Origin: a virus
Taxonomy: Duplodnaviria > Heunggongvirae > Uroviricota > Caudoviricetes
IMG/VR virus record: IMGVR_UViG_3300034102_002845
Length of the DNA: 64,000 bases
Strand: one strand, 5' to 3'
The number at the start of each line of letters is the position of its first letter. Position 1 is the first letter of the stretch. Below, one piece after another: positions 16,765 to 30,800 of this stretch. Below the pieces are notes generated by a model that made no database searches, had not been told where the DNA came from, and was given only the letters and a program-made list of their open reading frames with translations. A program made the translations under genes and the position numbers.

Positions 16765-16790
16765 CTCTTCCCCGTAAAGTAATAATCGTT

Positions 16791-17255
16791 ATGGAACCGT
16801 TAAACGAAGACCCGAATTCAGCAAGCCCTCCCATTAGCCCTGGCTCAGTGGAACAGATTGAAAAGGAAGTTATTGAGTTCTTGAACACAAAGGGAGGACG
16901 TGCAAAGCTTCGTGAAGTTCAAACTAGGTTTGAGCAGGAAACAGTGAAGTCCATTCAAAACCTCACAGTCGCACCGGGGTCTGTAGTTCTCGACATGATT
17001 GCAAACAACAAGCTTTATCTCAATTCCGACTGGGAAGCTGTACTAATGCACACCTGTCCAGTCAAGGCATTACCTCTGCCCACTCGGTACGTCACCACTG
17101 GGAGCTTTTCCGTGCGCAACGATATAATCTGCCCACGCTGCGGTCTTCAGCATGTTGATCGGGGCGACTGGGCCAAGAGACTGCACAGAAAGCACCTCTG
17201 CGAACGATGCGGCTGCATCTGGCAGCCTGAGGATGGGTATAGTTTCGGAATCTGA
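16791..17255 (+). CDS. hypothetical protein with C-terminal Zn finger
   Basis: CPRC...H...H.CERC. Confidence 0.55.
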   Translation: MEPLNEDPNSASPPISPGSVEQIEKEVIEFLNTKGGRAKLREVQTRFEQETVKSIQNLTVAPGSVVLDMIANNKLYLNSDWEAVLMHTCPVKALPLPTRYVTTGSFSVRNDIICPRCGLQHVDRGDWAKRLHRKHLCERCGCIWQPEDGYSFGI

Positions 17256-17688
17256 CCCTAAGTGTTCAATTCAGTGAGCAGGGCGGTTTACCGCCTTGCC
17301 TTTTCCAGGAATTTAAGGTATAATTAACGAGAAGCTGATCGATGACACCGGAACAATGAAGTCCACATTTTACGTGAAGAACGAAAAGGTTGAAAGTACA
17401 AAAGCTCTCGTTCGCCAACACGCAACTCTAAGATTTCTGCAGAACCCTTTACAGGGGGATCTACGACGGAGTTTTGCCTTGAGGGCGAGGTCCAAGACTT
17501 TAATTCTCTCAACGTGCTGATGGAGGAGCTAAACGTCAAAGAAAAACCAGAACCAGGGAGCTTTGTTGAACATTTCTGGTCTGTTGTAAAGGGTTCCCCT
17601 CGCAATCGCAACCTGTGAGTGCTCCGGGGTTAATTCTCTCACAACCCAAGCGGGCGGTAAACCGCCCCTTTACTGGGGGTTTACACCC

Positions 17689-18237
17689 TTGGTCCTGTGG
17701 ATCAGAACCGGTATAATTAGTTCAGTCAAAGCAACCCCCCAAGCAACCGTGAAAAGCACTGAAAGCGCCGAAAGCCCCAAACCGCCTACGGTAGAACTCG
17801 TCGAGTATTGTTGGGCTAACCGAGAGCGGTACATTCGTGACAGTCTGGAGCCCATGTATAGGGATCGATTCGACGAAGCCATTGAGGGGTTCGACTGCCT
17901 TGTTGGAATGGTAGAAGATGGAACTGTGTCCACAATGGAAGAACTGTCTAAGTACGGGATGGACTACCGAGAGGCTGTAGCCAGTCCTTCACCCACCCCA
18001 CCAACCTACACGGACCGAGAAAGCATCATGGGGCTAGCCCTTGATTCAGGTTTTGAGAAGAACTGGGCGGTTGTCCAAGGCGACGGCGACACCGATGAGC
18101 TGGCGGCCGGAAACCAGGCGCTGCCGTTGCTTTACCCCTACTACCGGGCGATCCAGATCTTGCCGGCGGAGCTGATTCAGCTCCTGCAGACGGAACTCAC
18201 TGGTGAAGGCGGCAGGTTGAAAAACTACCTCGCTTAA
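17689..18237 (+). CDS. hypothetical protein (start uncertain, probably after the promoter at 17712)
   Basis: long ORF; promoter lies inside its 5' part. Confidence 0.45.
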   Translation: MVLWIRTGIISSVKATPQATVKSTESAESPKPPTVELVEYCWANRERYIRDSLEPMYRDRFDEAIEGFDCLVGMVEDGTVSTMEELSKYGMDYREAVASPSPTPPTYTDRESIMGLALDSGFEKNWAVVQGDGDTDELAAGNQALPLLYPYYRAIQILPAELIQLLQTELTGEGGRLKNYLA

Positions 18238-18345
18238 ACGACCCAAGCGCACTTTAAATCAGGTGCCCTTACCACAAAATTCGCCCCTCCCGCCCGATGG
18301 GGCGGTTACCCGCCCTTTACTTCCCCGGTCAAACCGGCTATGCTT

Positions 18346-18412
18346 AAGGGGTGGTTGAGAGCTTCGCCTCTCGCCCTGAACCCGGTCTATCCGGGGCAAC
18401 TTGAAAATTTAA
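18346..18412 (+). promoter_or_regulatory. tRNA-operon leader 1: two hairpins plus boxA-like GCAACTTGAAAATTTAA
   Basis: conserved with leaders at 25398, 27208 and 29459. Confidence 0.75.
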
Positions 18413-18425
18413 GAGTTTCACACAC

Positions 18426-18497
18426 TGGTACGTAGCTCAGTGTTAGAGCTGGGGCCTAATCAGCCAGCGGTCGCAGGTTCAATTCCTGCCGTACCAG
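18426..18497 (+). tRNA. degenerate tRNA, anticodon AAT (Ile-like), weak anticodon stem
   Basis: good acceptor, D and T arms; only 3 bp in anticodon stem; C37. Confidence 0.5.
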
Positions 18498-18523
18498 TTG
18501 CCCCTGTAAATTCAGGGGTGTAA

Positions 18524-18597
18524 GCTGCAGTAGGCGAATTGGTTAAGCCGCCAGACTTTCAATCTGGAAATTACGGGTTCAAACCCCGTCTGCAGTA
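18524..18597 (+). tRNA. trnE: tRNA-Glu(TTC)
   Basis: cloverleaf; loop CTTTCAA. Confidence 0.9.
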
Positions 18598-18702
18598 TGA
18601 CCCTGCGGTTTTAACCCCAGGGCAAACCCACCTTGCCCCTACAGATCGGGAGATAACCTCAAAACGAGTCATCGTGGACGGGGATAAGACTCGGTGGGTT
18701 TC

Positions 18703-18829
18703 TGACTAAGAGTGTTAGCGGTTAGCATGTTCCTTTGGGCGAAAACAGTAAGATAGAACGAAGGCCAAGTTCCGTATCTGTAAGTAGTTTTGGACAGAGG
18801 AGGTTGAGGTTCGAGTCCTCATTAGTCAA
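18703..18829 (+). ncRNA. tRNA-like RNA with ~52-nt hairpin insertion in the anticodon arm
   Basis: TGACTAA/TTAGTCA acceptor, TGAGG-TTCGAGT-CCTCA T arm, insert closed by AAAAC/GTTTT. Confidence 0.65.
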
Positions 18830-19039
18830 TTGTCCCCGGCGAAACCGGGTAAGAGGGAAAATTGTCCCTAGGCAACAGGGTGCTTCGTTATGCCCTGACC
18901 ATCAAACATAACGCCATTTCTCGTGAGGGTAAGATCGAGACTCTGCATCCCGGAGTTAAGGGACGCTTCCCCTGGTTGTCGGACAACGAGGCGTTGCATC
19001 TTACGAAAATGATGCAAGTCACAGCTGGTAACTGTGACA

Positions 19040-19101
19040 GGGGATAAGTCTGGTTGACGTTCTGTGCACAAGAACCACGGGTTCGATTCCCGGTTTCTTC
19101 G
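19040..19101 (+). ncRNA. compact 62-nt tRNA-like RNA (GCA in 7-nt loop)
   Basis: GTC/GAC D stem, GTTCT/AGAAC stem, T arm, 1-nt variable region. Confidence 0.45.
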
Positions 19102-19342
19102 TTGGTTTGCGACAGCAAACCGGAAATTGCCCTGGAGGCACACTCACAGGCAAACGCGAGAGAAATTATGGACAATAGAGCCCGAGACGAATTCTCGGGT
19201 ACTCACCCGGCACCCTTCGGGTCCCTTCAAGGGATAACTCCTTAGCCTCATAATGTGAGTGCCTTTCGGGCATTATTCTGCCTGACACAATTCCTCACCG
19301 GACGGTGGGGTGGACCACGGTGATACGGGTTAGGACGAATGT

Positions 19343-19420
19343 TGAAACGGAGCTGGATGCCCATACTCGTACAGGATGGCCTCTGTGCGAACAATGCAGG
19401 TTCGATCCCTGCCGTTTTAA
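19343..19420 (+). ncRNA. degenerate tRNA-Tyr(GTA)-like RNA
   Basis: TGAAACG/CGTTTTA acceptor, GCAGG-TTCGATC-CCTGC T arm, poor D arm. Confidence 0.4.
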
Positions 19421-19705
19421 TTGCCTATGACTAACCACCAGGGAGTCTTGGTAAGGTTTAATCACATGGCAACAAGGTGTCTCGCAGCCTTGACCAAAAG
19501 TGCAGGACCGAAGCGGGGTTTTCACCGCTTGCCGAAACTCTCTGAGGCATGATGAGGGGTTGATGTACCACCAACTGAACTGGTACTCCTGTCAACTTGG
19601 GCCAAGTTGTAAAGTCCCGGCTGGTAATCGGGGAAATCGGCGTTGTTCCTGGAGCTGTATCTGGGGCAGACTCTGCAGAGGCGCCAACTCTCGAAAGAGG
19701 GTTTC

Positions 19706-19781
19706 CGGGACATCGCCTAACTTGGCTATGGCACCACTTTTGGGAAGTGGAAAAATCTCAGTTCGAATCTGAGTTTCCCGA
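19706..19781 (+). tRNA. trnP: tRNA-Pro(TGG)
   Basis: CCACT-TTTGGGA-AGTGG. Confidence 0.85.
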
Positions 19782-19958
19782 TTGCCACTTTGCGCTGGAA
19801 AGATAAACCAGGCTGCCGGTGGCTCAAACCCCCCTTGTTACAAAATTCCTGCTAAACAAGGGGGGGGGGTAAGCGCAGGCTCATCCTTAGATGCCATTTG
19901 TTGGTTTCCTTAGTCTAAGGTGGTATAAAGGTAAACCAACAATCCCTCCGGAGGGGAA

Positions 19959-20023
19959 GGTGCGTGGCTTAGTGGTAAAGCTGGTCCGAAAGGCTGAACG
20001 CAGGTTCGATTCCTGCCGCACCA
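19959..20023 (+). ncRNA. mini-tRNA with anticodon arm replaced by a GAAA tetraloop hairpin
   Basis: GGTGCG/CGCACC acceptor, GCTT/AAGC D stem, canonical T arm. Confidence 0.6.
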
Positions 20024-20252
20024 CTCAAAGTGAGATTCGAGAGTTAGTCGCCTCGACACCCGCAGGGGTGTAGCTTAAAAGACTCCCTAACAGAGCGCAC
20101 TCAACCCCAGTCATCCCACGGCGCTGGTCGCATAGCCGAAGGCACTTCCTGAAGAAGGAACAACTACCGCTGGCGGACCTGGGGCGGTTTGTTGTAAAAC
20201 AATTGGTAATCAGTAGCGTCTCGCGAGCAACGCTGATACAACCAGGTCCTGC

Positions 20253-20320
20253 GACCCTAAGTTAATGCCTCCACGCGGCAGGGTTGGTAACTTTCCCTTT
20301 TGGGAAAGGCTAAATTAACT
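20253..20320 (+). ncRNA. HDV-like self-cleaving ribozyme
   Basis: P1 GACCCT/AGGGTT with G+1.U wobble, P2 AGTTAAT/ATTAACT, P3 GCC/GGC, L3 TCCACGC, P1.1 CC/GG, P4 CTTTCCC/GGGAAAG, J4/2 GCTAA. Confidence 0.85.
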
Positions 20321-20467
20321 GGGAATTTCTCATCCCGTACGTGAGAAACCTCGACCAAGGTGAGAAGTCAGTCGCTCAGGACACTCTGGGAAAACCTGCC
20401 AAGGGTTAATTTGGACGGAACTTTCATCCGTTACGTGAAAGCTCTCCTTTGGATTTCGAAGGAATCC

Positions 20468-20545
20468 GGGGTACTTTGACAGCGATTTGCTTTAAAACCT
20501 CCAGTAGGTCTGGCAATTCGGTGGGTTTGATTCCCGCTTACTCCA
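20468..20545 (+). ncRNA. tRNA-like RNA with G3.U70 and A73, no D stem
   Basis: GGGGTAC/TTACTCC-A acceptor, GTGGG-TTTGATT-CCCGC T arm. Confidence 0.45.
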
Positions 20546-20924
20546 TTGGATTTTCTCAAATCCGACACCCCAGAAAAGTTTACTACCCCTGGTAGTGACT
20601 ATAATGGATGAGTCACTGCTCTGCTTGGGCGAAAGCTAAACGGATAACCGGACCGTTCAGCTCCAAGTATCAGGTTTCCCCTGGGTTAGCTCCCAGGGGG
20701 TTTAACCCATTCTAGAAACTGGGATCGTAAGGAAAACGTCGTTAAGTTCTCGTCACTGCCCTGTAAACAGACGTTAACATGGGGTGCTTTCTTGAGGGCT
20801 GTCTTGCCGCTGGTGCCGCTAGATGAAACACTCTTACCGGCCAGTTTGCGAGCCCTGCTGAAAGCTTAGTCCCCTCTGTGCGGCATTGGTTCGCCAAGGC
20901 CACGGGATTAGCCTCCCGTGCTAC

Positions 20925-21000
20925 CCAGGTATCGCCTAACTTGGCTATGGCACCTCTTTCGGGAAGAGGAATAGTCCCGGTTCAAATCCGGGTGCCTGGA
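20925..21000 (+). tRNA. trnP: tRNA-Pro(CGG)
   Basis: CCTCT-TTCGGGA-AGAGG. Confidence 0.9.
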
Positions 21001-21071
21001 TGTCCCACTAACGTGGGAGCAAGGAAACTTGATAACTAAGAAACTATTCTGTCGCAAATGCGATAGCATTT

Positions 21072-21144
21072 GGGGTCTTAGCTCAGTTGGTAGAGCATCT
21101 CTGTGGCACGGAGAAGGTGACCGGTTCGACCCCGGTAGATTCCA
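21072..21144 (+). tRNA. trnA: tRNA-Ala(GGC)
   Basis: G3.U70; loop GTGGCAC. Confidence 0.9.
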
Positions 21145-21172
21145 CTTTGTGGGCAACCACAAACTAGATCAA

Positions 21173-21246
21173 GGGCTTACATGTACCAAGGCTGGCGAGA
21201 TTGCTTTGCAAGCAAACTGTGAAGAGTTCGATTCTCTTTAGGTCCA
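21173..21246 (+). tRNA. trnA: tRNA-Ala(TGC), atypical D arm
   Basis: G3.U70; loop TTTGCAA. Confidence 0.8.
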
Positions 21247-21264
21247 CTTTCGCTAACGCGAAAA

Positions 21265-21382
21265 CACGAGGGAGAAATGTCGGTTCAAGTCCGACCCTGG
21301 GAGCCTATAACGTAGGGTCCTGGGTAGTTTAACTGGTGCCAAGGACTTGTTATCAGTACGCACAAGTCCAAAAACTTCTCCC
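21265..21382 (+). ncRNA. apparently circularly permuted tRNA (3' half 21265-21303 precedes 5' half 21318-21382)
   Basis: acceptor TCCTGGG/CCTGGGA and anticodon stem TTCTCCC/GGGAGAA pair between the halves. Confidence 0.7.
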
Positions 21383-21386
21383 ACAA

Positions 21387-21459
21387 CCCCTCATAGTGTA
21401 GCGGCCAAGCACGCACCTCTGTCTAAGGTGTATCACGGGTTCAAATCCCGTTGAGGGGG
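21387..21459 (+). tRNA. trnD: tRNA-Asp(GTC)
   Basis: CACCT-CTGTCTA-AGGTG. Confidence 0.9.
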
Positions 21460-21495
21460 TTATTCCGAGGGGTGGCCACCCCAATGACGAATAAA

Positions 21496-21555
21496 GCCAG
21501 AGTCCCTGGATAGGGAAGAGTCGCGACAACTGGGTTCGAATCCCAAGCTCTGGTG
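21496..21555 (+). ncRNA. 60-nt mini-tRNA-like RNA lacking an anticodon arm
   Basis: GCCAGAG/CTCTGGT acceptor, TCCCT/AGGGA hairpin, TTCGAAT T loop. Confidence 0.55.
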
Positions 21556-21640
21556 TTGATACTTCGTATCAATTGCTGCTCCGGCAACGCTGCGGTGTTG
21601 CCTAAGAGCAAATCCCCTTTCTTTAAACCTCAAAGAAAGA

Positions 21641-21700
21641 TTTCACGATCCTACTGGAGGATTGCCATCGGCAAAGCAGGTTCGAGTCCTGCCTTGGAAA
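21641..21700 (+). ncRNA. 60-nt mini-tRNA-like RNA
   Basis: ATCCT/AGGAT and TGCC/GGCA hairpins, GCAGG-TTCGAGT-CCTGC T arm. Confidence 0.5.
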
Positions 21701-21791
21701 TTGGTGCGAAGATCCCTAAATCTTTAAGCCAGCTTGCCTCAGAATCCAGCTGTTTGCTTAGGGGCGAACGATCTCTGGTGAAAAGAGCGAG

Positions 21792-21864
21792 TCTCTCATC
21801 GACTAATTGGACAAGTCCCCGCCCGCTCAGGGTGGTAATCCAGGTTCGAACCCTGGTGAGAGTG
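21792..21864 (+). tRNA. trnE: tRNA-Glu(CTC)
   Basis: CCGCC-CGCTCAG-GGTGG; G at position 33. Confidence 0.75.
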
Positions 21865-21893
21865 TTTGCTCTAGCGTGCTAGAGTAGTTAAGA

Positions 21894-21967
21894 GCCCGAG
21901 TGACCCAGCGGAAGAGGTGCCTGACTTAAAATCAGGAAGTCGTAGGGTTCGAATCCCACCTCGGGTA
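21894..21967 (+). tRNA. trnL: tRNA-Leu(TAA), short variable loop
   Basis: CCTGA-CTTAAAA-TCAGG. Confidence 0.85.
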
Positions 21968-22018
21968 TTGCTCCTTTGGCCTGGGCCTGGAAGCTCAGTG
22001 AATAAGGAACAAACAATC

Positions 22019-22094
22019 GCGTATGTACCCCAACCGGAAGAGGGGCAACACTGAGACTGTTGTTATGTGGAGGTTCGACCCCCTCTCATGCGCA
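22019..22094 (+). tRNA. trnL: tRNA-Leu(GAG), short variable loop
   Basis: CAACA-CTGAGAC-TGTTG. Confidence 0.8.
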
Positions 22095-22167
22095 TTTTCC
22101 TCTCACCCCTTTCCTCACGGTGGCGTGAACTTGGAAAGAACCCTACGGTTGAAAACCATGGGCAAAA

Positions 22168-22238
22168 TCTCGAATCGACTAGTGGTAGGTCGCCTGTCTC
22201 TGAAACAGGAAACTTTGGTTCGAATCCAAATTTGAGAA
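22168..22238 (+). tRNA. trnQ: tRNA-Gln(CTG)
   Basis: CCTGT-CTCTGAA-ACAGG; U1-A72. Confidence 0.85.
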
Positions 22239-22291
22239 TAACGCTTGGGGCGTGTGTGCGGTCCTGCGTACGTTTCTCGTATAGAAACCTT

Positions 22292-22380
22292 GGAAGAGTG
22301 GTCGAGTGGCTGATGACGATTGCTTGGAAAGCAATTGAGGCGCAAAAGCGTCTCCGGAGGTTCGAATCCTCTCTCTTCCG
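22292..22380 (+). tRNA. trnS: tRNA-Ser(GGA)
   Basis: long variable arm; loop TTGGAAA. Confidence 0.9.
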
Positions 22381-22439
22381 TCTCACTTGAGAGTAGTACA
22401 GCATATAGGGTAAATTAAGGAAGTCAATACGAGCTTATT

Positions 22440-23141
22440 ATGTCGCTAGGTTACTTCTCAGACGAGGTAGTTGAGTGGCTTTACGAAAATTACTCAGAGT
22501 TGGCCGGGAGTATTCTCTACGAATTTACAACGTGCCAGCGACCCAACGGGACTGTCTACGGCACGGCAGGAACTTGTCGAAAAGGCACAGAGATAGAACA
22601 ACGCCGCCAGGAGTCAATAACTCACCTGAACACTACCCTGGCTTCCTTAAGGGACAAGCTAGATAAGTCCCCCAAAGAGGGCAGGGACAGGATAAATAGA
22701 CTGATCACCAAGTTGGAAACGGACCTAAAGGCTATTCAGGGTGTCAAAGGGGTGGAAAAGAAAAGTACGGGGGTCGGTAGTAGGGCAACAAGTCAGGATC
22801 TTTCTCGAAATACTAGAGATGCCTCCTCGATGACGCCTGAAAGGTCTCAAAATAAGGAGTATGGGTTTTACGGTACTACTCAATACGCGAATCCCAAGGA
22901 AGTGGAAGAGCGCTGGCGTAACGCATCACGAGGGATTCAGTCTCAAGGGGTGCTTCCGATATACGCACGACGCCTGCTCGACGCGTCGTGGGGTAGGCAT
23001 TTGGCAAATGAGCTGGGGAAGACACCGACTGACAAGGTTTGGAAAACGGTCCAAGGAAAGCTTGAGAAGCGTGGTTCACCAGAACGAAAACACTTCCTGA
23101 AGATGTTGAGGATGGTCACACAAGAGGACTACGAAGATTGA
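22440..23141 (+). CDS. hypothetical protein with C.R..G..YGT.G.CRKG motif
   Basis: motif shared with 40625..41434. Confidence 0.7.
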   Translation: MSLGYFSDEVVEWLYENYSELAGSILYEFTTCQRPNGTVYGTAGTCRKGTEIEQRRQESITHLNTTLASLRDKLDKSPKEGRDRINRLITKLETDLKAIQGVKGVEKKSTGVGSRATSQDLSRNTRDASSMTPERSQNKEYGFYGTTQYANPKEVEERWRNASRGIQSQGVLPIYARRLLDASWGRHLANELGKTPTDKVWKTVQGKLEKRGSPERKHFLKMLRMVTQEDYED

Positions 23142-23321
23142 TTGGGCTTGATGGCCCTGCGTAGGCCCCAGAGAGCTCCGAACTCGGGTATAGGCCCCTT
23201 GGGGCTGAGTTCAGGTGAGTGGCCCTTCAAGGACATTCAGGTGCTTTCAGGGCGGTCTTCACTGCGTAAAGGGCGGTTTACCTCCCTTTGTTTTTCACGG
23301 CGGAAACGGTATAATTAAAGG

Positions 23322-23510
23322 GTGAGTGGTGCCAATGACATGGAAGTCTTTGCTGTAATGATCGAACCTTACGGGTTTGTTGACTCCTTTGGTTTCGAAG
23401 ATGCCCGTCTGCGTCTTTTTGTGCGTCAGGAACACGCTGAAGCTTACCGAAAGGAGCTTACCGATGAGGGGTACGACGGGGTCCTGTTGAAACCCCTCCC
23501 AGTGCTTTAA
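23322..23510 (+). CDS. hypothetical protein (probably leaderless, GTG start)
   Basis: start 6 nt after TATAAT. Confidence 0.5.
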   Translation: MSGANDMEVFAVMIEPYGFVDSFGFEDARLRLFVRQEHAEAYRKELTDEGYDGVLLKPLPVL

Positions 23511-23555
23511 CTCGACTCAGTTTACACCTTGTCCCTGGAAACTCCGAATTTAACC

Positions 23556-23993
23556 ATGAAAATCAACTTCGACACCATCGCCCTGCCAACAGAGTGCTCT
23601 GGTGGGGTTGTCTCAGGGAATTTCTTCCTGGTTGCTGACAACGACCTAGACTTTGAGATCGCCCACGCAGACGTAATTGAGGCGGAAACAAACTACGAAA
23701 AATACAAGAATTTCCCCCTAGGCAAGGAAAGACGGTTTAAAGTTCTCTATGAGGCGTGCGAAAGGCTACTAAAAGCCCTGTGGAAAGTTCGTAAGGTTCA
23801 AGGAACGGACGAGGCAGTTTTTCTCCTGAGACTTCATAAAGGGTTCGCCAGGAACCTTTACAATCTTCTTCAATACGGCTGGTCCATCGACCCGAAGCTG
23901 GCGAATACCCGGAAGTTTAAGGACATAACTTACGAATTTTTCAGTTGGGGAGGAGACTACTCCTACGACTTTTTCAATCGCACAATGCCGTAA
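23556..23993 (+). CDS. hypothetical protein
   Basis: ORF. Confidence 0.6.
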   Translation: MKINFDTIALPTECSGGVVSGNFFLVADNDLDFEIAHADVIEAETNYEKYKNFPLGKERRFKVLYEACERLLKALWKVRKVQGTDEAVFLLRLHKGFARNLYNLLQYGWSIDPKLANTRKFKDITYEFFSWGGDYSYDFFNRTMP

Positions 23994-24082
23994 GCGTGTT
24001 AGGGTTGTGTGGCCCACAGACCCGTTGAGGGCGGTTTTCCCCCTTTGTTTTGCTCGGCAAAACCGCTATACTTACAGGGTAA

Positions 24083-24286
24083 GTGATTCTAATCACAACG
24101 ATGAGAACTCCCCTCGGATCTTACCGAAATCGCGCCCACAGAGAAATAACAGAGGTTTGCGCCATGGTGCACCCCGACTGTATAGCTTATTTGTATGGTT
24201 TCTCTCCCTGGCCGAACCTTGAATTGCGAAGAACCGTCTCAGAGACTTATGAACGTTTGCGAAACGACTTCCCTGGTTGCCACTGA
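24083..24286 (+). CDS. hypothetical protein
   Basis: after promoter. Confidence 0.45.
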   Translation: MILITTMRTPLGSYRNRAHREITEVCAMVHPDCIAYLYGFSPWPNLELRRTVSETYERLRNDFPGCH

Positions 24287-24345
24287 AAGATCATAAGCAA
24301 CCCCACTCACAAAAGTTTTGACTCCGCTAGTCTCACCAGCTCACA

Positions 24346-24534
24346 ATGGACCACATTTTCGTCCTCCTAATTTTCAGATGGGGAGACTTTGACATTCGGC
24401 AAAGCCTACTCGTCTCTGCTCACTCAACTGAGACCCTCGCCCTAACAGCCGGCTTCAACCTTGGCTTACCTAACGAACCTCCAGAAGACGACGGGGACTG
24501 GTTCGGAGTTGAGAAGGTTAGGTTCGGAGTCTAA
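24346..24534 (+). CDS. hypothetical protein
   Basis: ORF. Confidence 0.45.
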   Translation: MDHIFVLLIFRWGDFDIRQSLLVSAHSTETLALTAGFNLGLPNEPPEDDGDWFGVEKVRFGV

Positions 24535-24543
24535 CCATCCCTT

Positions 24544-24945
24544 TTGTTAATACACACAAGCAAACCTATGTTCTCCACAAAACCTTCGCTCATCGAGAAA
24601 ACTACATTGTTTTCGATTGACAATCACTCAGACAAGCAGGTTACGGTGACCACTCGCTTTACCCACCCTAGCACAGGTGAAGAAGTAGGAGAGTATTCCT
24701 ATATAGTCTTCTGTGAGAGTGCTTACCTTGGCAGCAACGGGGACGCGGTTCTGGTTAGCCCGTGGAAATGGGTGGGACACTGGGTCACCTATTACTTGAA
24801 GGACGGTGTCACGGAGGTATCCGTGCCCTCCGTCTCTCACGTTCAGGCACGCAGAGTCCTTAATCGAAGAACCTCGTGGTGGGGTCGAGTAATGAATACG
24901 CTAACTGGGTACGGGAGCGGCGAATTGTTTGCACCTTGGAACTAG
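24544..24945 (+). CDS. hypothetical protein
   Basis: ORF. Confidence 0.55.
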   Translation: MLIHTSKPMFSTKPSLIEKTTLFSIDNHSDKQVTVTTRFTHPSTGEEVGEYSYIVFCESAYLGSNGDAVLVSPWKWVGHWVTYYLKDGVTEVSVPSVSHVQARRVLNRRTSWWGRVMNTLTGYGSGELFAPWN

Positions 24946-25073
24946 GCCACTAGGCCAGTAGGGCGGTTTCCCGCCCTTGTATCTACCCCGCAGAAACGCT
25001 ATAGTTACTTCAGTGCTTTAGACAAAGCTGCTCTCTGGCATGCATCCACATTACACAAAACCACGCGAGAATC

Positions 25074-25307
25074 ATGGAAGACCACACCGAACGTTACTTA
25101 ATTGAGCAGAAAGTTGAAAACTTTCTCAAAGCCCAACAGACACTGAAAGGTTTGAATCAGATTAGAGAGAGTCAAGAAGTTAATAAGATCGGGGACATAG
25201 AGGGCGACCACGTGAAAGCCGACGGTCTCCTAGTGGACTTCGTTCTCTATCTGGGGTTCACAGAGATCGTAGAAGCTTACGAGTCTATCGGAAAATGGTA
25301 CGCCTGA
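25074..25307 (+). CDS. hypothetical protein
   Basis: GDIEGDHVKAD.LL...Y..IGKWYA phage motif. Confidence 0.6.
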   Translation: MEDHTERYLIEQKVENFLKAQQTLKGLNQIRESQEVNKIGDIEGDHVKADGLLVDFVLYLGFTEIVEAYESIGKWYA

Positions 25308-25397
25308 AAGAGGTTTACTTTTTGTAAAGTGCGCTAAGCTAGCTTGCGACTGGGGTTCAAGAGGGCGGTTTCCCCGCTTTACTTCCCTGGTGAAAAA

Positions 25398-25475
25398 CGC
25401 TATACTAAAGGGGTGGTTGGGAAGCTCGGCTTCCTCCTCGCTCCCGCTCTTGCGGACGGCACCTCGAAAACTTAA
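25398..25475 (+). promoter_or_regulatory. tRNA-operon leader 2 with boxA-like GCACCTCGAAAACTTAA
   Basis: same architecture as the other leaders. Confidence 0.75.
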
Positions 25476-25481
25476 TACCAA

Positions 25482-25554
25482 GGGAGCGTAGCTCAGCGGT
25501 AAGAGCAATCGGTTGATAACCGATAGGCCGCCTGTTCAAATCAGGCCGTTCCCA
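25482..25554 (+). tRNA. trnI: tRNA-Ile(GAT)
   Basis: ATCGG-TTGATAA-CCGAT. Confidence 0.9.
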
Positions 25555-25617
25555 TTTTCGCATTAGCGAAAAAGGTTGCCCAAGTACCTGCGATGGTGCT
25601 TTCTAAACTTGGGATTT

Positions 25618-25690
25618 GGGTTTGTAGCTCAATTGGCAGAGTAACCGGCTCTTACCCGGAACGTTGTGGGTTCGAATCCCACCAAACCCA
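25618..25690 (+). tRNA. trnK: tRNA-Lys(CTT)
   Basis: loop CTCTTAC. Confidence 0.85.
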
Positions 25691-25797
25691 TGGCCTTCGG
25701 GCATTTTTCGTAGAGCGAAAAAACGAACTGAAACGTTCCTCGCAGAGGTGAGACGCTCTGCCCCTATCGGCTAACTTTTGTTTTCCGATAAGAAAAC

Positions 25798-25870
25798 GGG
25801 GGCACATGTTCCAAGGTGGCGAGGACGCTTCGCAAGCGACTTGTGATCGGTTCAATTCCGATTGTCTCCA
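25798..25870 (+). tRNA. trnA: tRNA-Ala(CGC), atypical D arm
   Basis: G3.U70; loop TTCGCAA. Confidence 0.75.
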
Positions 25871-26022
25871 TTTTCGCACTCGCGAAAATTCCTTAAGCGA
25901 GGTTGCCGGTTTGCAACTTAAGGGATGGTAATAACCGGCTAGAGTAAGGATTCCTACTCATAAGGGGACGCTCGCGACCCCAGAGTGCTTCTTAATACCC
26001 CCTGCCGTAATGCAGGGCTCAA

Positions 26023-26103
26023 TGGGGTGTAGCATAATTGGTAATGCAGCTGGCTGTTAACCAGTGTCGAAAGACAATGAAGGTTCGAATCCTTCCACTC
26101 CAG
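26023..26103 (+). tRNA. trnN: tRNA-Asn(GTT) with extra GAAA-capped variable arm
   Basis: loop CTGTTAA; TGTC-GAAA-GACA arm. Confidence 0.85.
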
Positions 26104-26169
26104 TTTCTCCTACAGGAGAATACTAAACGGGAAGAGAACCTATTTCAGATTCTCTTCATACGTTAAGAA

Positions 26170-26324
26170 CGAAGTGTGCCGGAATTGGTATACGGCGGTG
26201 TGGATTCAGCCAATACGGATGGGGTTGTGAACAAATAGCAACCTCCTAGCTCATGGTTGCAACCACCGATCAGGTAACAGCTAGACGTAATCCTGATATG
26301 AGAGTTCGAGTCTCTCCACTTTGG
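26170..26324 (+). ncRNA. 155-nt tRNA-Leu-like scaffold with expanded anticodon domain and variable arm
   Basis: CGAAGTG/CACTTTG acceptor, Leu-type D loop, GAGAG-TTCGAGT-CTCTC T arm. Confidence 0.65.
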
Positions 26325-26418
26325 TTACCCTAAAACTTAGCCCGTGTACAACGGGTGAAAAAAAGGGGGTAAAGTTTCTTTAACTGTGTACCCTTATAAG
26401 AGGGATTGCGCAGCAATC

Positions 26419-26503
26419 CGCCCCATCGACTAACGGCGTCGTAGCCAGGTTAGGTCGCTACTTTCTTAAGGTAGAAATGCCGGTTCGACTCCGGCTGGGG
26501 CGA
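26419..26503 (+). tRNA. trnK: tRNA-Lys(CTT) with ~13-nt hairpin insertion in the D loop
   Basis: CTACT-TTCTTAA-GGTAG; GGC-GTCGTA-GCC insertion. Confidence 0.7.
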
Positions 26504-26506
26504 TTC

Positions 26507-26629
26507 CCCTAAGGTAAATAGCGGAACTAAAACTGAGTTCGATTCTCGGGATACTTGGAAGTTGTGTGGGTTCGATTCCCAACTAGAGTGCCGGCGCACG
26601 GGAAGGTTCGAAGCCTTCTATCTTAGGGT
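26507..26629 (+). ncRNA. RNA with three tandem T-loop hairpins inside a closing stem
   Basis: TTCGATT, TTCGATT and TTCGAAG hairpins; CCCTAAG/CTTAGGG closure. Confidence 0.6.
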
Positions 26630-26632
26630 GAT

Positions 26633-26721
26633 GGAAGATTGGCCGAGTGGTTGAAGGCGACGGTTTGCTAAACCGTTGAGCTGCGCAAGCAGCTCCGTGA
26701 GTTCGAATCTCACATCTTCCG
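26633..26721 (+). tRNA. trnS: tRNA-Ser(GCT)
   Basis: long variable arm; loop TTGCTAA. Confidence 0.9.
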
Positions 26722-26751
26722 TTGTTCTCTCCGAAGAACTACAAGAAAAAT

Positions 26752-26822
26752 GCCCTTCAAGCATTGTGGTGATGCAGCAGTTTTGTAAACTGCAGAGCAG
26801 GGTTCGATTCCCTGGCAGGGCT
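26752..26822 (+). tRNA. trnT: tRNA-Thr(TGT)
   Basis: GCAGT-TTTGTAA-ACTGC. Confidence 0.85.
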
Positions 26823-26934
26823 TTGCTCCGTGATTCGCTCAGTTAACCGAACGAACCGGGGCGGTTTCCCACCCTTTCGCTTCACGGTGAAACCAGCTAA
26901 ACTTAAATTGTTACCGTTGGTCCTCCAAATCAAA

Positions 26935-27159
26935 ATGGCTCAAGCAACTTTCGGCACCCTTAAAGGGTTGAGTGTTCGCAAAGAGAACGAGCTTTGTGTA
27001 TCCATCGCTGGAGAACTCACCGAGCTTTTGGAAGAGGGAGCATCCGCTCCTACCCGAGACGAGATTCTTGCGAAGCTGCAGGACTGCGTCAGGATGTACG
27101 GCAACGGGCACCTTGACGATTTCTTCGTTCGCAAGGTTGTATTTGAGTTCACCCTTTGA
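26935..27159 (+). CDS. hypothetical protein
   Basis: ATG after promoter, within track ORF 26830..27159. Confidence 0.55.
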   Translation: MAQATFGTLKGLSVRKENELCVSIAGELTELLEEGASAPTRDEILAKLQDCVRMYGNGHLDDFFVRKVVFEFTL

Positions 27160-27207
27160 TACGGCGGTTCCCGTCCTTGTTTCTGCCCCGCAGAAACGCT
27201 ATACTAA

Positions 27208-27283
27208 AGGGGTGGTTGAGAGAGGGCTTCGCCCTCACCTCCTCCCCGCTTTTGCGAAAGCAAAAGGCAACTTGAAAATTTAA
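27208..27283 (+). promoter_or_regulatory. tRNA-operon leader 3 with GAAA hairpin and boxA-like GCAACTTGAAAATTTAA
   Basis: conserved leader. Confidence 0.75.
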
Positions 27284-27288
27284 TACGG

Positions 27289-27360
27289 GGGGCATTAACT
27301 CAGCGGTAGAGTATCCGGCTTTTAACCGGTCAGTCCTCGGTTCGAATCCGAGATGCCCCA
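27289..27360 (+). tRNA. trnK: tRNA-Lys(TTT)
   Basis: loop CTTTTAA. Confidence 0.9.
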
Positions 27361-27427
27361 TTTTCTGCTTTGCAGAAAAACGGCAGCACGTTCAGGGACC
27401 GATTCAATTCCGGTCAACAGAGTTAAC

Positions 27428-27586
27428 GGGAAATTAGCTCAGCGGTAGAGCCCTGGGCACATTACCCAGGTGAGTGCTTCAGTACGAGTGTCGAATGGCG
27501 GATTGATCCCCGACCTTCGCCTTTGTAACAGCACGCTCACAACCTGATCAGTTGAGAGAGCGTTGGTTCGATTCCAACATATCCCA
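27428..27586 (+). ncRNA. 159-nt tRNA(CAT)-like RNA with 92-nt variable-region insert
   Basis: CTGGG-CACATTA-CCCAG arm, normal D and T arms, insert 27470-27561. Confidence 0.7.
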
Positions 27587-27636
27587 TTGAAAACCTTTCG
27601 GTTTTCTAGCTACAAACTTACCGTGTTATGGTAATT

Positions 27637-27724
27637 GGAGAGAGTCCGGCTGGACGAGGAGACCGTCTTGAAAACGGTTACAGGGGGGAGACCCCCTGCG
27701 CAGGTTCGATTCCTGTTCTCTCCG
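27637..27724 (+). tRNA. trnS: tRNA-Ser(TGA)
   Basis: loop CTTGAAA; long variable arm. Confidence 0.85.
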
Positions 27725-27769
27725 TTTGCCCCACTGTGGGCAATCTGTTCACCCCACTGTGGTTGAAGT

Positions 27770-27841
27770 GCGAATGTAACTCAGCGGTAGAGTACCTCGT
27801 TGCCAACGAGAATGTCGAGGGTTCAAATCCCTTCATTCGCT
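27770..27841 (+). tRNA. trnG: tRNA-Gly(GCC)
   Basis: loop TTGCCAA. Confidence 0.9.
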
Positions 27842-27869
27842 CTTTCCCTTAAATAGGGATCACAGTCAA

Positions 27870-27951
27870 GCCCGCCTGGTGAAATTGGTATATACGCTAG
27901 TTTTAGGAACTAGTGCCGAAAGGCGTGGGAGTTCGAGTCTCCCGGCGGGTA
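27870..27951 (+). tRNA. trnL: tRNA-Leu(TAG)
   Basis: loop TTTAGGA; long variable arm. Confidence 0.9.
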
Positions 27952-28001
27952 TGTTCTCTTTACGGAGAACTCTAGCTCCTTGACTTAATTCAGGGTGCAA
28001 A

Positions 28002-28120
28002 GAGCAAGTAGCTCAGTTGGTAGAGCGGCAACCTCCTCTGAGTCTCGCAAGAGACTCTCGGTAAAGGACCGTAACGCTGGAGGGCAAAGCAAGCCGTTGG
28101 TTCAAGTCCAACCTTGCTCC
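28002..28120 (+). ncRNA. 119-nt tRNA scaffold with anticodon arm replaced by a branched domain
   Basis: GAGCAAG/CTTGCTC acceptor, canonical D and T arms, GAGTCTC-GCAA-GAGACTC hairpin. Confidence 0.7.
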
Positions 28121-28195
28121 TTTCCTTGCTACCTCAGCCAAGGGTTTACTTCCCCCTTGGGAAGCTATCATAGCTTCTATACTCAAGGCAGCCGC

Positions 28196-28266
28196 TTCGA
28201 AGTCGTCTAACGGTAGGACACCTCCCTTTGAAGGAGATTATATAGGTCCGAATCCTATCTTCGAAA
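28196..28266 (+). tRNA. trnQ: tRNA-Gln(TTG)
   Basis: loop CTTTGAA. Confidence 0.8.
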
Positions 28267-28317
28267 CTTGCCTTGAGAAGTTTACTCCTAGCTAAAAACG
28301 CTATAGTAAAGGTGTAA

Positions 28318-28391
28318 CGCGGACGAGTGTCACGGTAGTCACGCTGGGCCCATAACCCAGAGGAGCAGGGGTTCAATTCCCCGGTCCGCCA
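28318..28391 (+). tRNA. trnfM: initiator tRNA-fMet(CAT)
   Basis: unpaired position 1; three consecutive G-C pairs in the anticodon stem. Confidence 0.8.
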
Positions 28392-28413
28392 TTGTTTTGC
28401 TTTCGCAAAACTT

Positions 28414-28464
28414 AGGTGATTCAGCGATTCATACCTCACTTTCTTTGGTAGAAAACAATCATCT
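28414..28464 (+). ncRNA. 50-nt repeated structured element, copy 1
   Basis: GRTGATT-CAGCGATTCA...TTTC-TTTGGTA-GAAA..AATCATC. Confidence 0.75.
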
Positions 28465-28495
28465 AGCCTAACTTTGTTGGGAACTCTCAAAGCAT

Positions 28496-28568
28496 GGTGG
28501 TAGAAGCCTAAGGGATGGGCAACTGGTTGTGAACCAGTAATTAGCGGGTTCGAGTCCCGTCTATCACC
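28496..28568 (+). tRNA. trnH: tRNA-His(GTG) with encoded G-1
   Basis: loop TTGTGAA; C73. Confidence 0.85.
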
Positions 28569-28603
28569 CTTTTCGCTTACGCGAAATTACACTAAAGCAA
28601 AAT

Positions 28604-28676
28604 GCGGTCGTAACTCAGTCGGTAGAGTGTCTTCCTTCCAAGTAGAAAGTCGCGTGTTCGAGTCACGTCGACAGCT
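28604..28676 (+). tRNA. trnG: tRNA-Gly(TCC)
   Basis: loop CTTCCAA. Confidence 0.8.
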
Positions 28677-28707
28677 CTTTTCTCTCACGAGAAAACTCAA
28701 GTAAAAT

Positions 28708-28789
28708 GCGGGTATAGCTCAGCGGTAGAGCACTTGTTTTCCAAACAAGAGGCGAATAGTTCACGCAGGTTCAAATCCTGTTACCCGCT
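28708..28789 (+). tRNA. trnG: tRNA-Gly(TCC) with 15-nt variable region
   Basis: CTTGT-TTTCCAA-ACAAG; GCGAA-TAG-TTCAC arm. Confidence 0.8.
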
Positions 28790-28820
28790 CTTTTCTCTCA
28801 CGAGAAAACTTAAGTAAAAT

Positions 28821-28891
28821 GCCGGAGTCGTCTAGTGGTAAGACTACTGCTTCCAAACCAGAAAACGGGGGTTCGATTCCTCTCTCCGGTG
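28821..28891 (+). tRNA. trnW: tRNA-Trp(CCA), weak anticodon stem
   Basis: loop TTCCAAA by canonical numbering; G73. Confidence 0.6.
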
Positions 28892-28957
28892 TAGTTTGCA
28901 CGGAAAAAGGACGGTTTAGACCCCTGTGTCTGCCTCGCAAAACGCTATGCATACCTT

Positions 28958-29167
28958 ATGGAAAACAGCCCATCTTGGCACTCGTACAAAGCCGTCAACA
29001 TAGACGGGATCTACTACAACACACCCTTCATTAAAGAGGTTGTCGAGCAGTTGATCCGGAAAAGCTTCCTCGTTCGATCCGGACTTGATGAATATTCCCT
29101 TGCCGAGGTCTTTGCACTCAAAGTTCTTGACGGTAGTAACAAGCTTCCTTCTGAAAACGGGCGGTAA
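28958..29167 (+). CDS. hypothetical protein (probably leaderless)
   Basis: ATG 6 nt after -10-like hexamer. Confidence 0.55.
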   Translation: MENSPSWHSYKAVNIDGIYYNTPFIKEVVEQLIRKSFLVRSGLDEYSLAEVFALKVLDGSNKLPSENGR

Positions 29168-29226
29168 ACCGCCCTTTCCCTTTCCGAGGAAAGGCGCTAT
29201 GATTGCACTGTAGCCGGAACAAACTA

Positions 29227-29397
29227 ATGACCTTTTATCTCAAGAAAGCCGTGACCGGGGATTCTGTTGGGGGTGAAAGCTACCCAAGCTACGGCGAGGC
29301 AATAAACGCAGCTCGCGACATTTCCCGCTCAACTGGTGAGGACATTTACATTGTCGATGCAGTTACGGGGGCGGTGTGGGACACCGTATTAACCTGA
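29227..29397 (+). CDS. small hypothetical protein
   Basis: after promoter. Confidence 0.5.
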   Translation: MTFYLKKAVTGDSVGGESYPSYGEAINAARDISRSTGEDIYIVDAVTGAVWDTVLT

Positions 29398-29458
29398 AGG
29401 CCCCCAGCAAAGGGACGGTAAACCGCCCTTTCGCCCCACGGAGAAACCGGTTATACTA

Positions 29459-29527
29459 AAGGAGTGGTTGGGAAGCTCGGCTTCCGCCTCGCTTCCGCTC
29501 TTGCGGGGGGGCAACTTGAAAATTTAA
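29459..29527 (+). promoter_or_regulatory. tRNA-operon leader 4 with boxA-like GCAACTTGAAAATTTAA
   Basis: near copy of leader 2. Confidence 0.75.
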
Positions 29528-29532
29528 ACATT

Positions 29533-29614
29533 GCCGGCCTGGCGGAATTGGTAGTCGCGCCTGACTCAAAATCAGGTTCCGAAAGGAGTGAGAGTTCGAG
29601 TCTCTCGGTCGGTA
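29533..29614 (+). tRNA. trnL: tRNA-Leu(CAA)
   Basis: loop CTCAAAA; long variable arm. Confidence 0.9.
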
Positions 29615-29725
29615 TGTTCTCTTAACGAGAACTTTAAACAATGCCCTGGTAGCTTGGTGTACCAGACTCGAGAGTTCAAGTATCTCATCGGGTGTAGTCC
29701 GGGTAAAACTTCTTAGCATTGCGCT

Positions 29726-30745: not shown

Positions 30746-30800
30746 TTTTGCTAACGCAAAACCCAAAGCCATGGGATACTGATGGTAACAAAGGTGTGAT

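What the first reader, a model, noticed from the sequence alone, without database searches (positions are those of the whole stretch)
18703..28120. Family of tRNA-scaffold RNAs: intact acceptor/D/T elbow carrying foreign cargo domains
Seen: at least four RNAs (18703-18829, 26170-26324, 27428-27586, 28002-28120) keep a 7-bp acceptor stem and a canonical T arm (three also a clear D arm) but carry 50-90 extra structured nucleotides in the anticodon or variable position. They sit among normal tRNAs in the same operons, alongside mini-tRNAs, a triple-T-loop RNA and a permuted tRNA. Established: RNase P, tRNase Z and CCA enzymes recognise the elbow and acceptor, so such RNAs could be cut out and stabilised like tRNAs. 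Inference: the phage may use the tRNA frame as a chassis for stable small RNAs or decoys, for example against anticodon nucleases or tRNA-sensing defences. This is my best candidate for an undescribed system.
Basis: partly seen in the sequence, partly recalled or inferred. Interest (0 to 1): 0.88.

Follow-up and report, generated by a model that had tools for sequence, protein, structure and literature searches.

The report
Four tRNA-framed non-decoding phage RNAs
A large cyanophage-type phage carries, among its ordinary tRNA genes, four conserved RNAs that keep the ends and elbow of a tRNA but replace the decoding arm with other folded domains, so they are probably stable non-coding RNAs cut out like tRNAs, and their job is not known.

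Summary
All four loci (c1 18703-18829, c2 26170-26324, c3 27428-27586, c4 28002-28120) have a 7-bp acceptor stem and a T arm. c3 and c4 pass Rfam's tRNA threshold once a 100- or 59-nt insert is skipped.

c1, c2 and c4 recur in related uncultured jumbo phages at 84-89% identity. Compensatory changes keep the acceptor stems (all three), the T stem (c1) and at least one cargo helix paired. Parts of the cargo are invariant. c1's cargo is the only DNA of this 13.7-kb region shared with a complete, otherwise unlike 195-kb phage. c3 is known only at 97% identity or more.

They are four separate families, not one. None has a usable anticodon loop, and I found no sign of splicing.

The same clade encodes a Ro60-like protein. 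Other insert-bearing tRNA-shaped RNAs follow that gene and share a hairpin-CAGCA module. The scan has noted this theme before on other DNA. Models of that module do not find c1-c4, and the 195-kb phage has c1 but neither the protein nor the module. Only c3 shows a loose likeness.

Best reading: tRNA-processed, non-decoding RNAs with specific cargo domains of unknown function. This is a new variant of a known kind.

The parts
18703..18829 (+). c1, a 127-nt tRNA-framed RNA. Acceptor 18703-09 / 18822-28. Weak D arm 18712-28. 8-bp basal stem 18730-37 / 18795-802 closing a conserved cargo of about 55 nt. T arm 18805-21. Discriminator A at 18829.
   Evidence: ARAGORN intron mode. Five homologues, including two from other phage records. 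Nine pairs with changes on both sides, 98.2% of cells paired, 0 of 500 shuffles as high.
26170..26324 (+). c2, a 155-nt class-II-like frame. It has a 3-bp D stem with an 11-nt loop. The anticodon arm is replaced by a 2-helix domain of about 70 nt. A long variable-arm hairpin has a loop that pairs with the junction of that domain. T arm and a 7-bp acceptor complete it.
   Evidence: Fold. Six homologues at 84-97% identity. Six pairs with double changes. Loop-loop helix 97% paired, with one A-U to G-C swap.
27428..27586 (+). c3, a 159-nt RNA with a full cloverleaf. Its anticodon arm copies the stem of the phage's initiator tRNA (loop has CAU but A33). A domain of about 90 nt sits in the variable position and reads GUCGAAUG, then a hairpin, then 7 nt, then CAGCA.
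   Evidence: Rfam tRNA 38.9 bits. Only three near-identical copies are known. Initiator gene 28318-28391 for comparison. Composite-motif statistics. A strain variant lacking 72 nt appears in RNA-library contigs.
28002..28120 (+). c4, a 119-nt RNA with a flawless acceptor, D arm and T arm. The anticodon arm is replaced by a three-way junction: a CCUCC/GGAGG stem, a variable hairpin 1 and an invariant hairpin 2 (CGGU-AAAGG-ACCG) with invariant joining strands.
   Evidence: Rfam tRNA 45.4 bits. Five homologues. Five pairs with double changes, three of them in hairpin 1. A distant 177-nt relative in another tRNA array has hairpin 1 replaced by about 85 nt.

Best explanation
c1-c4 are four independent, non-decoding, tRNA-framed small RNAs.

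Processing (inferred). They are transcribed inside the phage's tRNA operons. Because they keep the acceptor stem, the elbow and the tRNA-type 3' trailer, RNase P and the tRNA 3'-end enzymes should cut them out like tRNAs. They are probably CCA-tailed and stabilised by the same route.

Cargo (inferred). The frame presents a specific folded domain in place of the anticodon limb (c1, c2, c4) or as a giant variable arm (c3). Sequence-invariant cores next to freely covarying stems suggest that each cargo is a binding site for a particular protein or RNA partner.

c3 may be a divergent partner RNA of the clade's Ro60-like protein. c1 is not tied to that protein. For c2 and c4 I found no link.

Shown: the structures, their conservation and covariation, the shared unit layout, and their presence unspliced in RNA-library contigs. 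Inferred: processing, stability, partner binding and any biological role.
For: Frame:
- Rfam tRNA hits for c3 and c4 and ARAGORN intron-mode hits for c1, c3 and c4.
- Acceptor and T stems covary. c1 has 4 acceptor, 3 T-stem and 2 cargo-stem double changes, with 0 of 500 shuffles as high. c4 has 2 acceptor and 3 hairpin-1 double changes. c2 has 2 acceptor and 4 variable-arm double changes.

Cargo under selection:
- c4's hairpin 2 and junction strands are invariant in 5 sequences, and they are kept in a distant relative whose hairpin 1 is about 85 nt.
- c1's 84-nt cargo is 86% identical in a complete 194.6-kb phage. That phage shares no other DNA with window 18300-32000 at E<=1e-5.
- c2's loop-loop pairing is kept through a compensatory swap.

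Same unit design as true tRNAs: a U(U) + trailer hairpin follows the discriminator in c1, c3 and c4, and lies 15 nt downstream in c2.

Not decoding:
- c2 and c4 have no 7-nt loop.
- c1's loop candidate is paired.
- c3 has A33.
- In the 194.6-kb phage the neighbouring tRNA genes encode CCA, but the c1 homologue does not.

RNA-library contigs from lake metatranscriptomes contain c1, c2 and c4 with their inserts.
Against: - No direct evidence exists for discrete processed products, CCA tails or any partner.
- The contigs come from RNA libraries that may hold DNA or primary transcripts. They cannot show RNA ends.
- Sequence sets are small (3-6 per RNA) and the covariation rests on few independent events.
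- c3 is known only from copies at 97% identity or more. A strain variant lacks 72 nt of it, so selection on c3 is not shown.
- c1's elbow nucleotides change in one relative, so it may not form a true tRNA elbow.
Confidence: 0.55

Rival explanations
1. All four are Y-RNA-like partners of the phage's Ro60-like ring protein. On this reading they are tRNA-shaped versions of YrlA in which the cargo is the docking arm.
For: - The nearest relative encodes a DUF2828/DUF7788 vWA protein. The 13 best PDB matches of its model are all Ro60/TROVE structures (E-values 1.7e-7 to 6.7e-5).
- In every relative, 1-4 insert-bearing tRNA-shaped genes follow that gene on the same strand.
- Stand-alone stem-CAGCRAUU-hairpin elements of the same type sit inside the window's tRNA arrays.
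- c3 has GUCGAAUG (the published GNCGAAN0-1G/CGAA motif), then a hairpin, then CAGCA. That composite occurs only 7 times in 2.06 Mb.
Against: - A covariance model of the module finds exactly the two RNAs beside the gene in each of two complete relatives. It finds no c1-c4 homologue, and nothing better than E 1.5 in the window.
- A model of the commonest Ro60-linked RNA type scores ordinary tRNAs above c2, c4 and c1.
- Rfam YrlA gives no hit at E<=1 across 16000-35000.
- In the nearest relative the homologues lie 21-75 kb from the gene.
- A complete phage has c1 but no Ro60-like gene and no module.
- CGAA and CAGCA are short and were partly chosen after the fact.
Confidence: 0.15
2. They are intron-containing tRNA genes. 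The inserts would be removed, for example by cleavage followed by one of the phage's RNA ligases, to give working tRNAs.
For: - ARAGORN's intron mode calls c1, c3 and c4.
- Relatives carry a tRNA(CAU) with a 43-60-nt insert exactly between positions 33 and 34. Removing it restores a normal loop.
- Earlier notes on this genome report several RNA ligases. I did not test that here.
Against: - Trying every single excision gives no consistent canonical tRNA for c2 or c4.
- c1's loop candidate is part of a covarying stem.
- c3's arm is already whole, and it lacks U33.
- The inserts are too short for group I introns, and no intron family hit appears.
- Invariant cargo sequence is not expected of a spacer.
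- All 20 amino acids are already served by the 43 normal tRNAs.
- No contig joint matches an insert boundary.
Confidence: 0.08
3. They are decaying tRNA pseudogenes or chimeric duplication products of a fast-evolving tRNA array, and have no function of their own.
For: - The array contains many tRNA fragments, such as T-arm-only hairpins and a mini-tRNA.
- c3 is confined to near-identical genomes, and one strain lacks 72 nt of it.
- c1's elbow is degenerate in one relative.
Against: - Compensatory changes keep the stems paired in c1, c2 and c4.
- Between diverged relatives, matches are almost all confined to tRNAs, short repeat elements and these RNAs, and the spacers mostly do not align.
- The cargo cores are invariant.
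Confidence: 0.1
4. They act in cis within the polycistronic tRNA transcripts, for example as entry or pause sites for processing enzymes, and not as free RNAs.
For: They lie inside operons between true tRNAs. The island also holds T-arm-only hairpins and an HDV-like ribozyme candidate.
Against: A cis signal would not need a full 7-bp acceptor that covaries, a D arm and a trailer hairpin identical in layout to released tRNAs. The loci also move independently between arrays in relatives.
Confidence: 0.07

Closest known systems
YrlA-type bacterial and phage Y RNAs with Ro60/Rsr (Rfam RF02553; Chen et al. 2014, PMC4201824; Thermus phage phiLo Ro60 with Yrl1/Yrl2, PMC12135203)
   Same: Both are non-coding RNAs that imitate the tRNA acceptor, D and T arms and carry a non-tRNA module. 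YrlA is cleaved by RNase P and receives CCA (PMC4201824). This phage clade encodes a Ro60-like protein followed by tRNA-shaped RNAs.
   Different: - YrlA is open at the anticodon end and closed at the acceptor end. c1-c4 have normal tRNA topology.
- There is no RF02553 hit.
- None lies within 4 kb of the Ro60-like gene.
- The clade's own docking module is absent by model search.
- c1 occurs in a phage that lacks the protein.
Bacteriophage T4 stable RNAs species 1 and 2 (RNA C and D), encoded in the T4 tRNA cluster.
   Same: They are small stable RNAs of unknown function encoded among phage tRNA genes. As I recall, they have tRNA-like termini and are matured by the tRNA-processing enzymes.
   Different: I made no sequence or structure comparison. 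A paper search found no usable text.
Ordinary tRNA (Rfam RF00005), including class II tRNAs with long variable arms
   Same: Acceptor, D arm, T arm, U8, G18/G19 and the T-loop consensus are present in c2-c4. c3 and c4 exceed the family threshold.
   Different: There is no functional anticodon loop. The inserts of 50-100 nt are far larger than any natural variable arm.
Engineered 'tRNA scaffold' for producing recombinant RNAs. This is from my own knowledge and was not checked.
   Same: The design principle matches: the anticodon arm is replaced by cargo, so the cell processes and protects the chimera as if it were a tRNA.
   Different: That scaffold is a laboratory construct. These RNAs are natural, conserved genes.

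Membership tests
tRNA (RF00005), as a decoding tRNA | Cloverleaf frame: 7-bp acceptor, D arm and T arm with the conserved loops | tested here: met
   c4 scores 45.4 bits and c3 38.9 bits against a threshold of 29. c2 folds this way but is not reported by the model. c1 has a weak D arm.
tRNA (RF00005), as a decoding tRNA | 5-bp anticodon stem with a 7-nt loop, U33 and a purine at position 37 | tested here: not met
   c2 and c4 have no such loop. c1's candidate loop is paired. c3's loop is CACAUUA, with A33 and U37.
YrlA (RF02553) | Match to the family covariance model | tested here: not met
   No YrlA hit at E<=1 in window 16000-35000. The best hits in the nearest relative are 18.8 bits or less, against a gathering score of 69, and cover only the D/T parts of tRNAs.
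YrlA (RF02553) | Encoded within about 4 kb of the Ro60 gene on the same strand | tested here: not met
   In the nearest relative the Ro60-like gene is at 62.1-63.6 kb. The c1 homologue is at 41.4 kb and the c2-c4 homologues at 137.9-140.0 kb.
YrlA (RF02553) | GNCGAAN0-1G / CGAA motif near the Ro60-binding stem | tested here: inconclusive
   c3 has GUCGAAUG. c1 has two CGAA. c2 and c4 have none. A 4-mer is expected by chance in about a third of 100-nt inserts.
This clade's Ro60-linked tRNA-shaped RNAs (A-rich stretch, hairpin, CAGCA module) | Match to a covariance model of the module built from 17 RNAs that lie beside the Ro60-like gene | tested here: not met
   No hit at c1-c4; the best window hit is E 1.5 elsewhere. 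In two complete relatives only the two RNAs beside the gene match. By a looser pattern, c3 alone has a hairpin, then 7 nt, then CAGCA.
Group I intron in a tRNA gene | Intron of 200 nt or more with a group I core, inserted in the anticodon loop | tested here: not met
   The inserts are 50-100 nt. No intron family matches at E<=10 over 26100-28450 or at E<=1 over 16000-35000.
Protein-spliced tRNA intron | Excision of one segment restores a canonical tRNA | tested here: not met
   Exhaustive single excisions scored with ARAGORN give no consistent product for c2 or c4. For c1 and c3 the calls rest on loops that lack U33 or a purine at 37. I did not examine bulge-helix-bulge motifs.

The most novel reading that the evidence does not exclude
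Large phages use the tRNA frame as a general, modular chassis. Several unrelated cargo domains, each a specific binding site, are matured and protected by the host's tRNA machinery. This class is independent of Ro60. At least one member (c1) is spread across distinct jumbo-phage lineages, where its cargo is more conserved than any tRNA.
Probability: 0.35. Interest if true: 0.8.

Novelty: new variant of a known kind. Interest (0 to 1): 0.6.

Why it matters
If these are stable, tRNA-processed RNAs with specific partners, phage tRNA islands hold more than decoding capacity. They would be a source of structured regulatory or counter-defence RNAs that current annotation labels as pseudo-tRNAs, intron-bearing tRNAs or nothing.

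c1 is the best first target, because its cargo is shared by otherwise unlike phages.

The result also sets a limit on the Ro60 explanation that this scan has often given for insert-bearing phage tRNAs. It does not fit c1, and I found no support for it in c2 or c4.

Tried and rejected
- **Phage collection:** searching the INPHARED phage collection with the region found only a 59-nt match.
- **Neighbouring protein:** The search for related loci with the 233-aa protein at 22440-23138 gave only close relatives.
- **IMG/VR pattern scans:** the c2 18-mer gave 4 chance hits and 1 new relative. The c4 18-mer gave only known records.
- **Other collection scans:** the metagenome scan with a c3 18-mer gave one relative and 4 chance hits. 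The genome-contig scan with the c1 18-mer gave 15 chance hits with unrelated flanks.
- **Ro60-like protein by sequence:** a Pfam TROVE search of the nearest relative found nothing. Sequence and profile searches of PDB were also empty. Only the fold comparison showed the likeness to Ro60.
- **Kinship of c2 with the commonest Ro60-linked RNA:** I saw a 15-nt likeness if a 7-nt gap is allowed, but the covariance model did not support it.
- **Resemblance to rRNA:** by eye, c3 and c4 recalled the sarcin-ricin loop, c2 recalled the L11-binding rRNA, and c2 and c4 recalled the anti-Shine-Dalgarno sequence. These rest on 7- to 11-mers recalled from memory, and no rRNA family hit appeared. I rejected them as probable chance.
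- **Parental tRNAs:** I looked for tRNAs from which c1-c4 might derive. No clear parent emerged, apart from c3's anticodon arm, which copies the initiator's stem.
- **Cargo motifs elsewhere:** motifs from the cargos do not recur elsewhere in seven related records.
- **Read depth and uncovered stretches:** figures from the RNA-library contigs were not used to rank expression.


Full report
**Setting.** The window holds 43 ARAGORN tRNA genes and a permuted tmRNA, all on the + strand. Its own assembly is not held. The nearest record (G001) is a 277-kb, 98%-complete uncultured phage that is 76-99% identical across the tRNA region. Public runs that hold the stretch are lake-water metagenomes. I call the four RNAs c1 (18703-18829), c2 (26170-26324), c3 (27428-27586) and c4 (28002-28120).

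- With permissive filters, Rfam's tRNA model matches c4 (45.4 bits) and c3 (38.9 bits) from end to end. It skips 59 and 100 nt in place of the anticodon arm. The gathering score is 29 bits.
- A simple scan for a T arm, a complementary 7-mer 95-230 nt upstream and a D arm finds all four. It finds nothing on the window's minus strand.
- Free folding gives acceptor, D and T arms for c2, c3 and c4.
- c1 is the weakest frame. It has G8 and a D stem with two G-U pairs. In one relative both the D-loop GG and the T-loop UU are changed.

**Conservation and covariation.** Homologues came from six whole phage records fetched for this purpose, from pattern scans of IMG/VR and from one metagenome scan.

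| RNA | Sequences | Cells paired | Pairs changed on both sides | Shuffles as high |
|---|---|---|---|---|
| c1 | 5 | 98.2% | 9 (4 acceptor, 3 T stem, 2 basal cargo stem) | 0 of 500 |
| c4 | 5 | 98.8% | 5 (2 acceptor, 3 hairpin 1) | not counted here |
| c2 | 6 | 97.4% | 6 (2 acceptor, 4 variable-arm hairpin) | not counted here |

- In c4, hairpin 1 has three quite different 7-bp sequences. Hairpin 2 and both joining strands never vary.
- In c2, the loop-loop pairing proposed in another first-reader note is 97% paired, with one A-U to G-C swap.
- These are small sets with few independent events, so the figures support the structures but do not prove them.
- c3 is known only from three copies at 97% identity or more. 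Selection on c3 is therefore not shown.

**Reach beyond the clade.**
- c1's 84-nt cargo is 86% identical in a complete 194.6-kb phage with terminal repeats (G007). It is the only DNA of window 18300-32000 that matches that genome at E<=1e-5.
- In G007 the c1 homologue sits in a tRNA array directly after tRNA-Leu. It keeps a T arm and a 6-7-bp acceptor with quite different sequences. It lacks an encoded CCA, although the neighbouring tRNA genes have one.
- A 177-nt c4-like RNA lies in another phage's tRNA array. It has the same D arm, the CCUCC-type stem, hairpin 2 and the following strand. An insert of about 85 nt takes the place of hairpin 1.

**Are they decoding tRNAs or intron-bearing genes?** Probably not.
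- c2 and c4 have no 7-nt loop.
- c1's UUGGGCG is half buried in the covarying basal stem.
- c3's arm has the same stem as the phage's own initiator tRNA (28318-28391). Its loop is CACAUUA, with A33.
- Trying every single excision and re-scoring with ARAGORN gave no consistent canonical product for c2 or c4.
- The inserts are too short for group I introns, and no intron or ribozyme family matches them.
- Contigs from four lake metatranscriptome libraries contain c1, c2 and c4 with inserts in place. No joint coincides with an insert boundary. Contigs cannot show RNA ends or exclude rare spliced forms.
- In three of those libraries a strain variant of c3 has 72 nt replaced by 4 letters. Whether that form also exists as DNA could not be checked.

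**Same unit design as tRNAs.** Almost every tRNA in the array is followed, directly after the discriminator, by U(U) and a short trailer hairpin. So are c1, c3 and c4. In c2 the hairpin lies 15 nt downstream. This is why I infer tRNA-type maturation.

**The Ro60 lead.** Earlier notes of this scan report a Ro60-like protein with tRNA-shaped partner RNAs in this genome and in many other phages. I tested this on the nearest relative.
- G001 encodes a 492-aa DUF2828/DUF7788 vWA protein.
- An AlphaFold model built from nine homologues has a mean pLDDT of 68. Its 13 best PDB matches are all Ro60/TROVE structures, including the Thermus phage phiLo protein. E-values run from 1.7e-7 to 6.7e-5, although TM-scores are only about 0.35.
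- In every relative, 1-4 insert-bearing tRNA-shaped genes follow this gene on the same strand. All share an A-rich stretch, a covarying hairpin and an invariant CAGCA.
- A covariance model of that module finds exactly the two RNAs beside the gene in each of two complete relatives, and nothing else there. In the window it finds nothing at c1-c4; the best hit is E 1.5 elsewhere.
- A model of the commonest Ro60-linked RNA type ranks ordinary tRNAs above c2, c4 and c1.
- G007 has c1 but no Ro60-like gene and no module.

So c1 is independent of that system, and nothing ties c2 or c4 to it.

c3 is the exception. Its variable-arm domain reads GUCGAAUG, then a 6-bp hairpin, then 7 nt, then CAGCA directly before the closing strand.
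- GUCGAAUG fits the published GNCGAAN0-1G and CGAA motifs.
- The composite of CGAA, hairpin and CAGCA occurs 7 times in 2.06 Mb. Two of these are c3, one is a Ro60-linked RNA and four lie elsewhere.
- A hairpin followed by CAGCA alone occurs 221 times.
- This is suggestive but partly chosen after the fact. I put c3's link to Ro60 at about 0.4.

**Conclusion.** The four loci are real RNA genes, or at least conserved RNA structures in the cases of c1, c2 and c4. They use the tRNA frame and carry specific cargo. They form four families, not one. The chassis idea fits the data. A role as decoys for anticodon nucleases has no support. Function remains open, and I commit to protein- or RNA-binding cargo presented on a tRNA-processed frame, at confidence 0.55. 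The nearest published concept is the tRNA-mimicking Y RNA. The T4 stable RNAs from that phage's tRNA cluster are a second parallel, from my own memory only.

Noticed in passing
window 28413-28466, 31115-31167 and 31757-31809: Three copies of a 50-nt element lie between tRNA units. Each has an outer stem GAUGAUU/AAUCAUC, an unpaired CAGCGAUUCA and an inner hairpin. Relatives have CAGCAAUUA at the same place. Copies also sit beside the Ro60-linked RNAs (G001 60739, G003 59528). They look like small stand-alone Y-like RNAs.
   Followed up: partly
window about 18900-19650, 19813-20015 and from 20624: In one metatranscriptome, contigs over this non-coding island have depths of about 340-3300, against about 15 elsewhere. 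Sequencing adaptor sits directly at 19642, 19813, 20015 and 20624. This suggests very abundant, discrete small RNAs, one of about 375 nt (19268-19642). No Rfam family matches them.
   Followed up: no
G004:C1:73580-73712 and G005:C1:64647-64762 (relatives, not in the window): A tRNA(CAU) gene is interrupted exactly between positions 33 and 34 by a 43-60-nt insert that itself contains a T-arm-like hairpin. Removing the insert restores a normal CUCAUAA loop. This looks like a real short intron whose means of removal is unknown.
   Followed up: no
window 19958-20024: A 67-nt mini-tRNA (Rfam tRNA 40.4 bits) has its anticodon arm replaced by a stretch of about 10 nt containing GGUCCGAAAGG. GGUCCGA is the animal Y-RNA Ro-binding sequence quoted in PMC4201824.
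   Followed up: no
window 21265-21385: This tRNA-like RNA is circularly permuted, with the 3' half first, then a linker hairpin, then the 5' half. That is the strand order of YrlA. It gives no RF02553 hit at E<=1.
   Followed up: partly
window 26419-26503 and 26507-26625: A tRNA-like gene called a UUA suppressor has an extra hairpin between the acceptor and the D arm (Rfam 31.4 bits). It is followed by three T-loop hairpins in a row.
   Followed up: no
window 28318-28391: The phage's initiator-type tRNA has a C1-C72 mismatch, three G-C pairs next to the loop, and C33 instead of U33. ARAGORN misses it and Rfam scores it at only 31.1 bits.
   Followed up: no
window 18300-18360, 26860-26910 and 27160-27215, with many copies in G001: A repeat of about 50 nt (GGCGGTT..CC..TTT...AAAC.GCTAnnCTTAA) is followed by GGGGTGGTTGAGAG and hairpins. 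It heads each tRNA operon and is scattered through the relative's genome. It is probably a phage promoter plus leader.
   Followed up: no
window 58158-59300 and 9965-11092: An RlaP-family nucleotidyltransferase (RNA repair pathway) is encoded near the tmRNA gene. An ATP-dependent ligase is also encoded in the window.
   Followed up: no
window 20253-20320: There is a weak match to an HDV-like ribozyme family (24.8 bits, below the threshold of 44). The relative has a match at the same place (25.6 bits).
   Followed up: no
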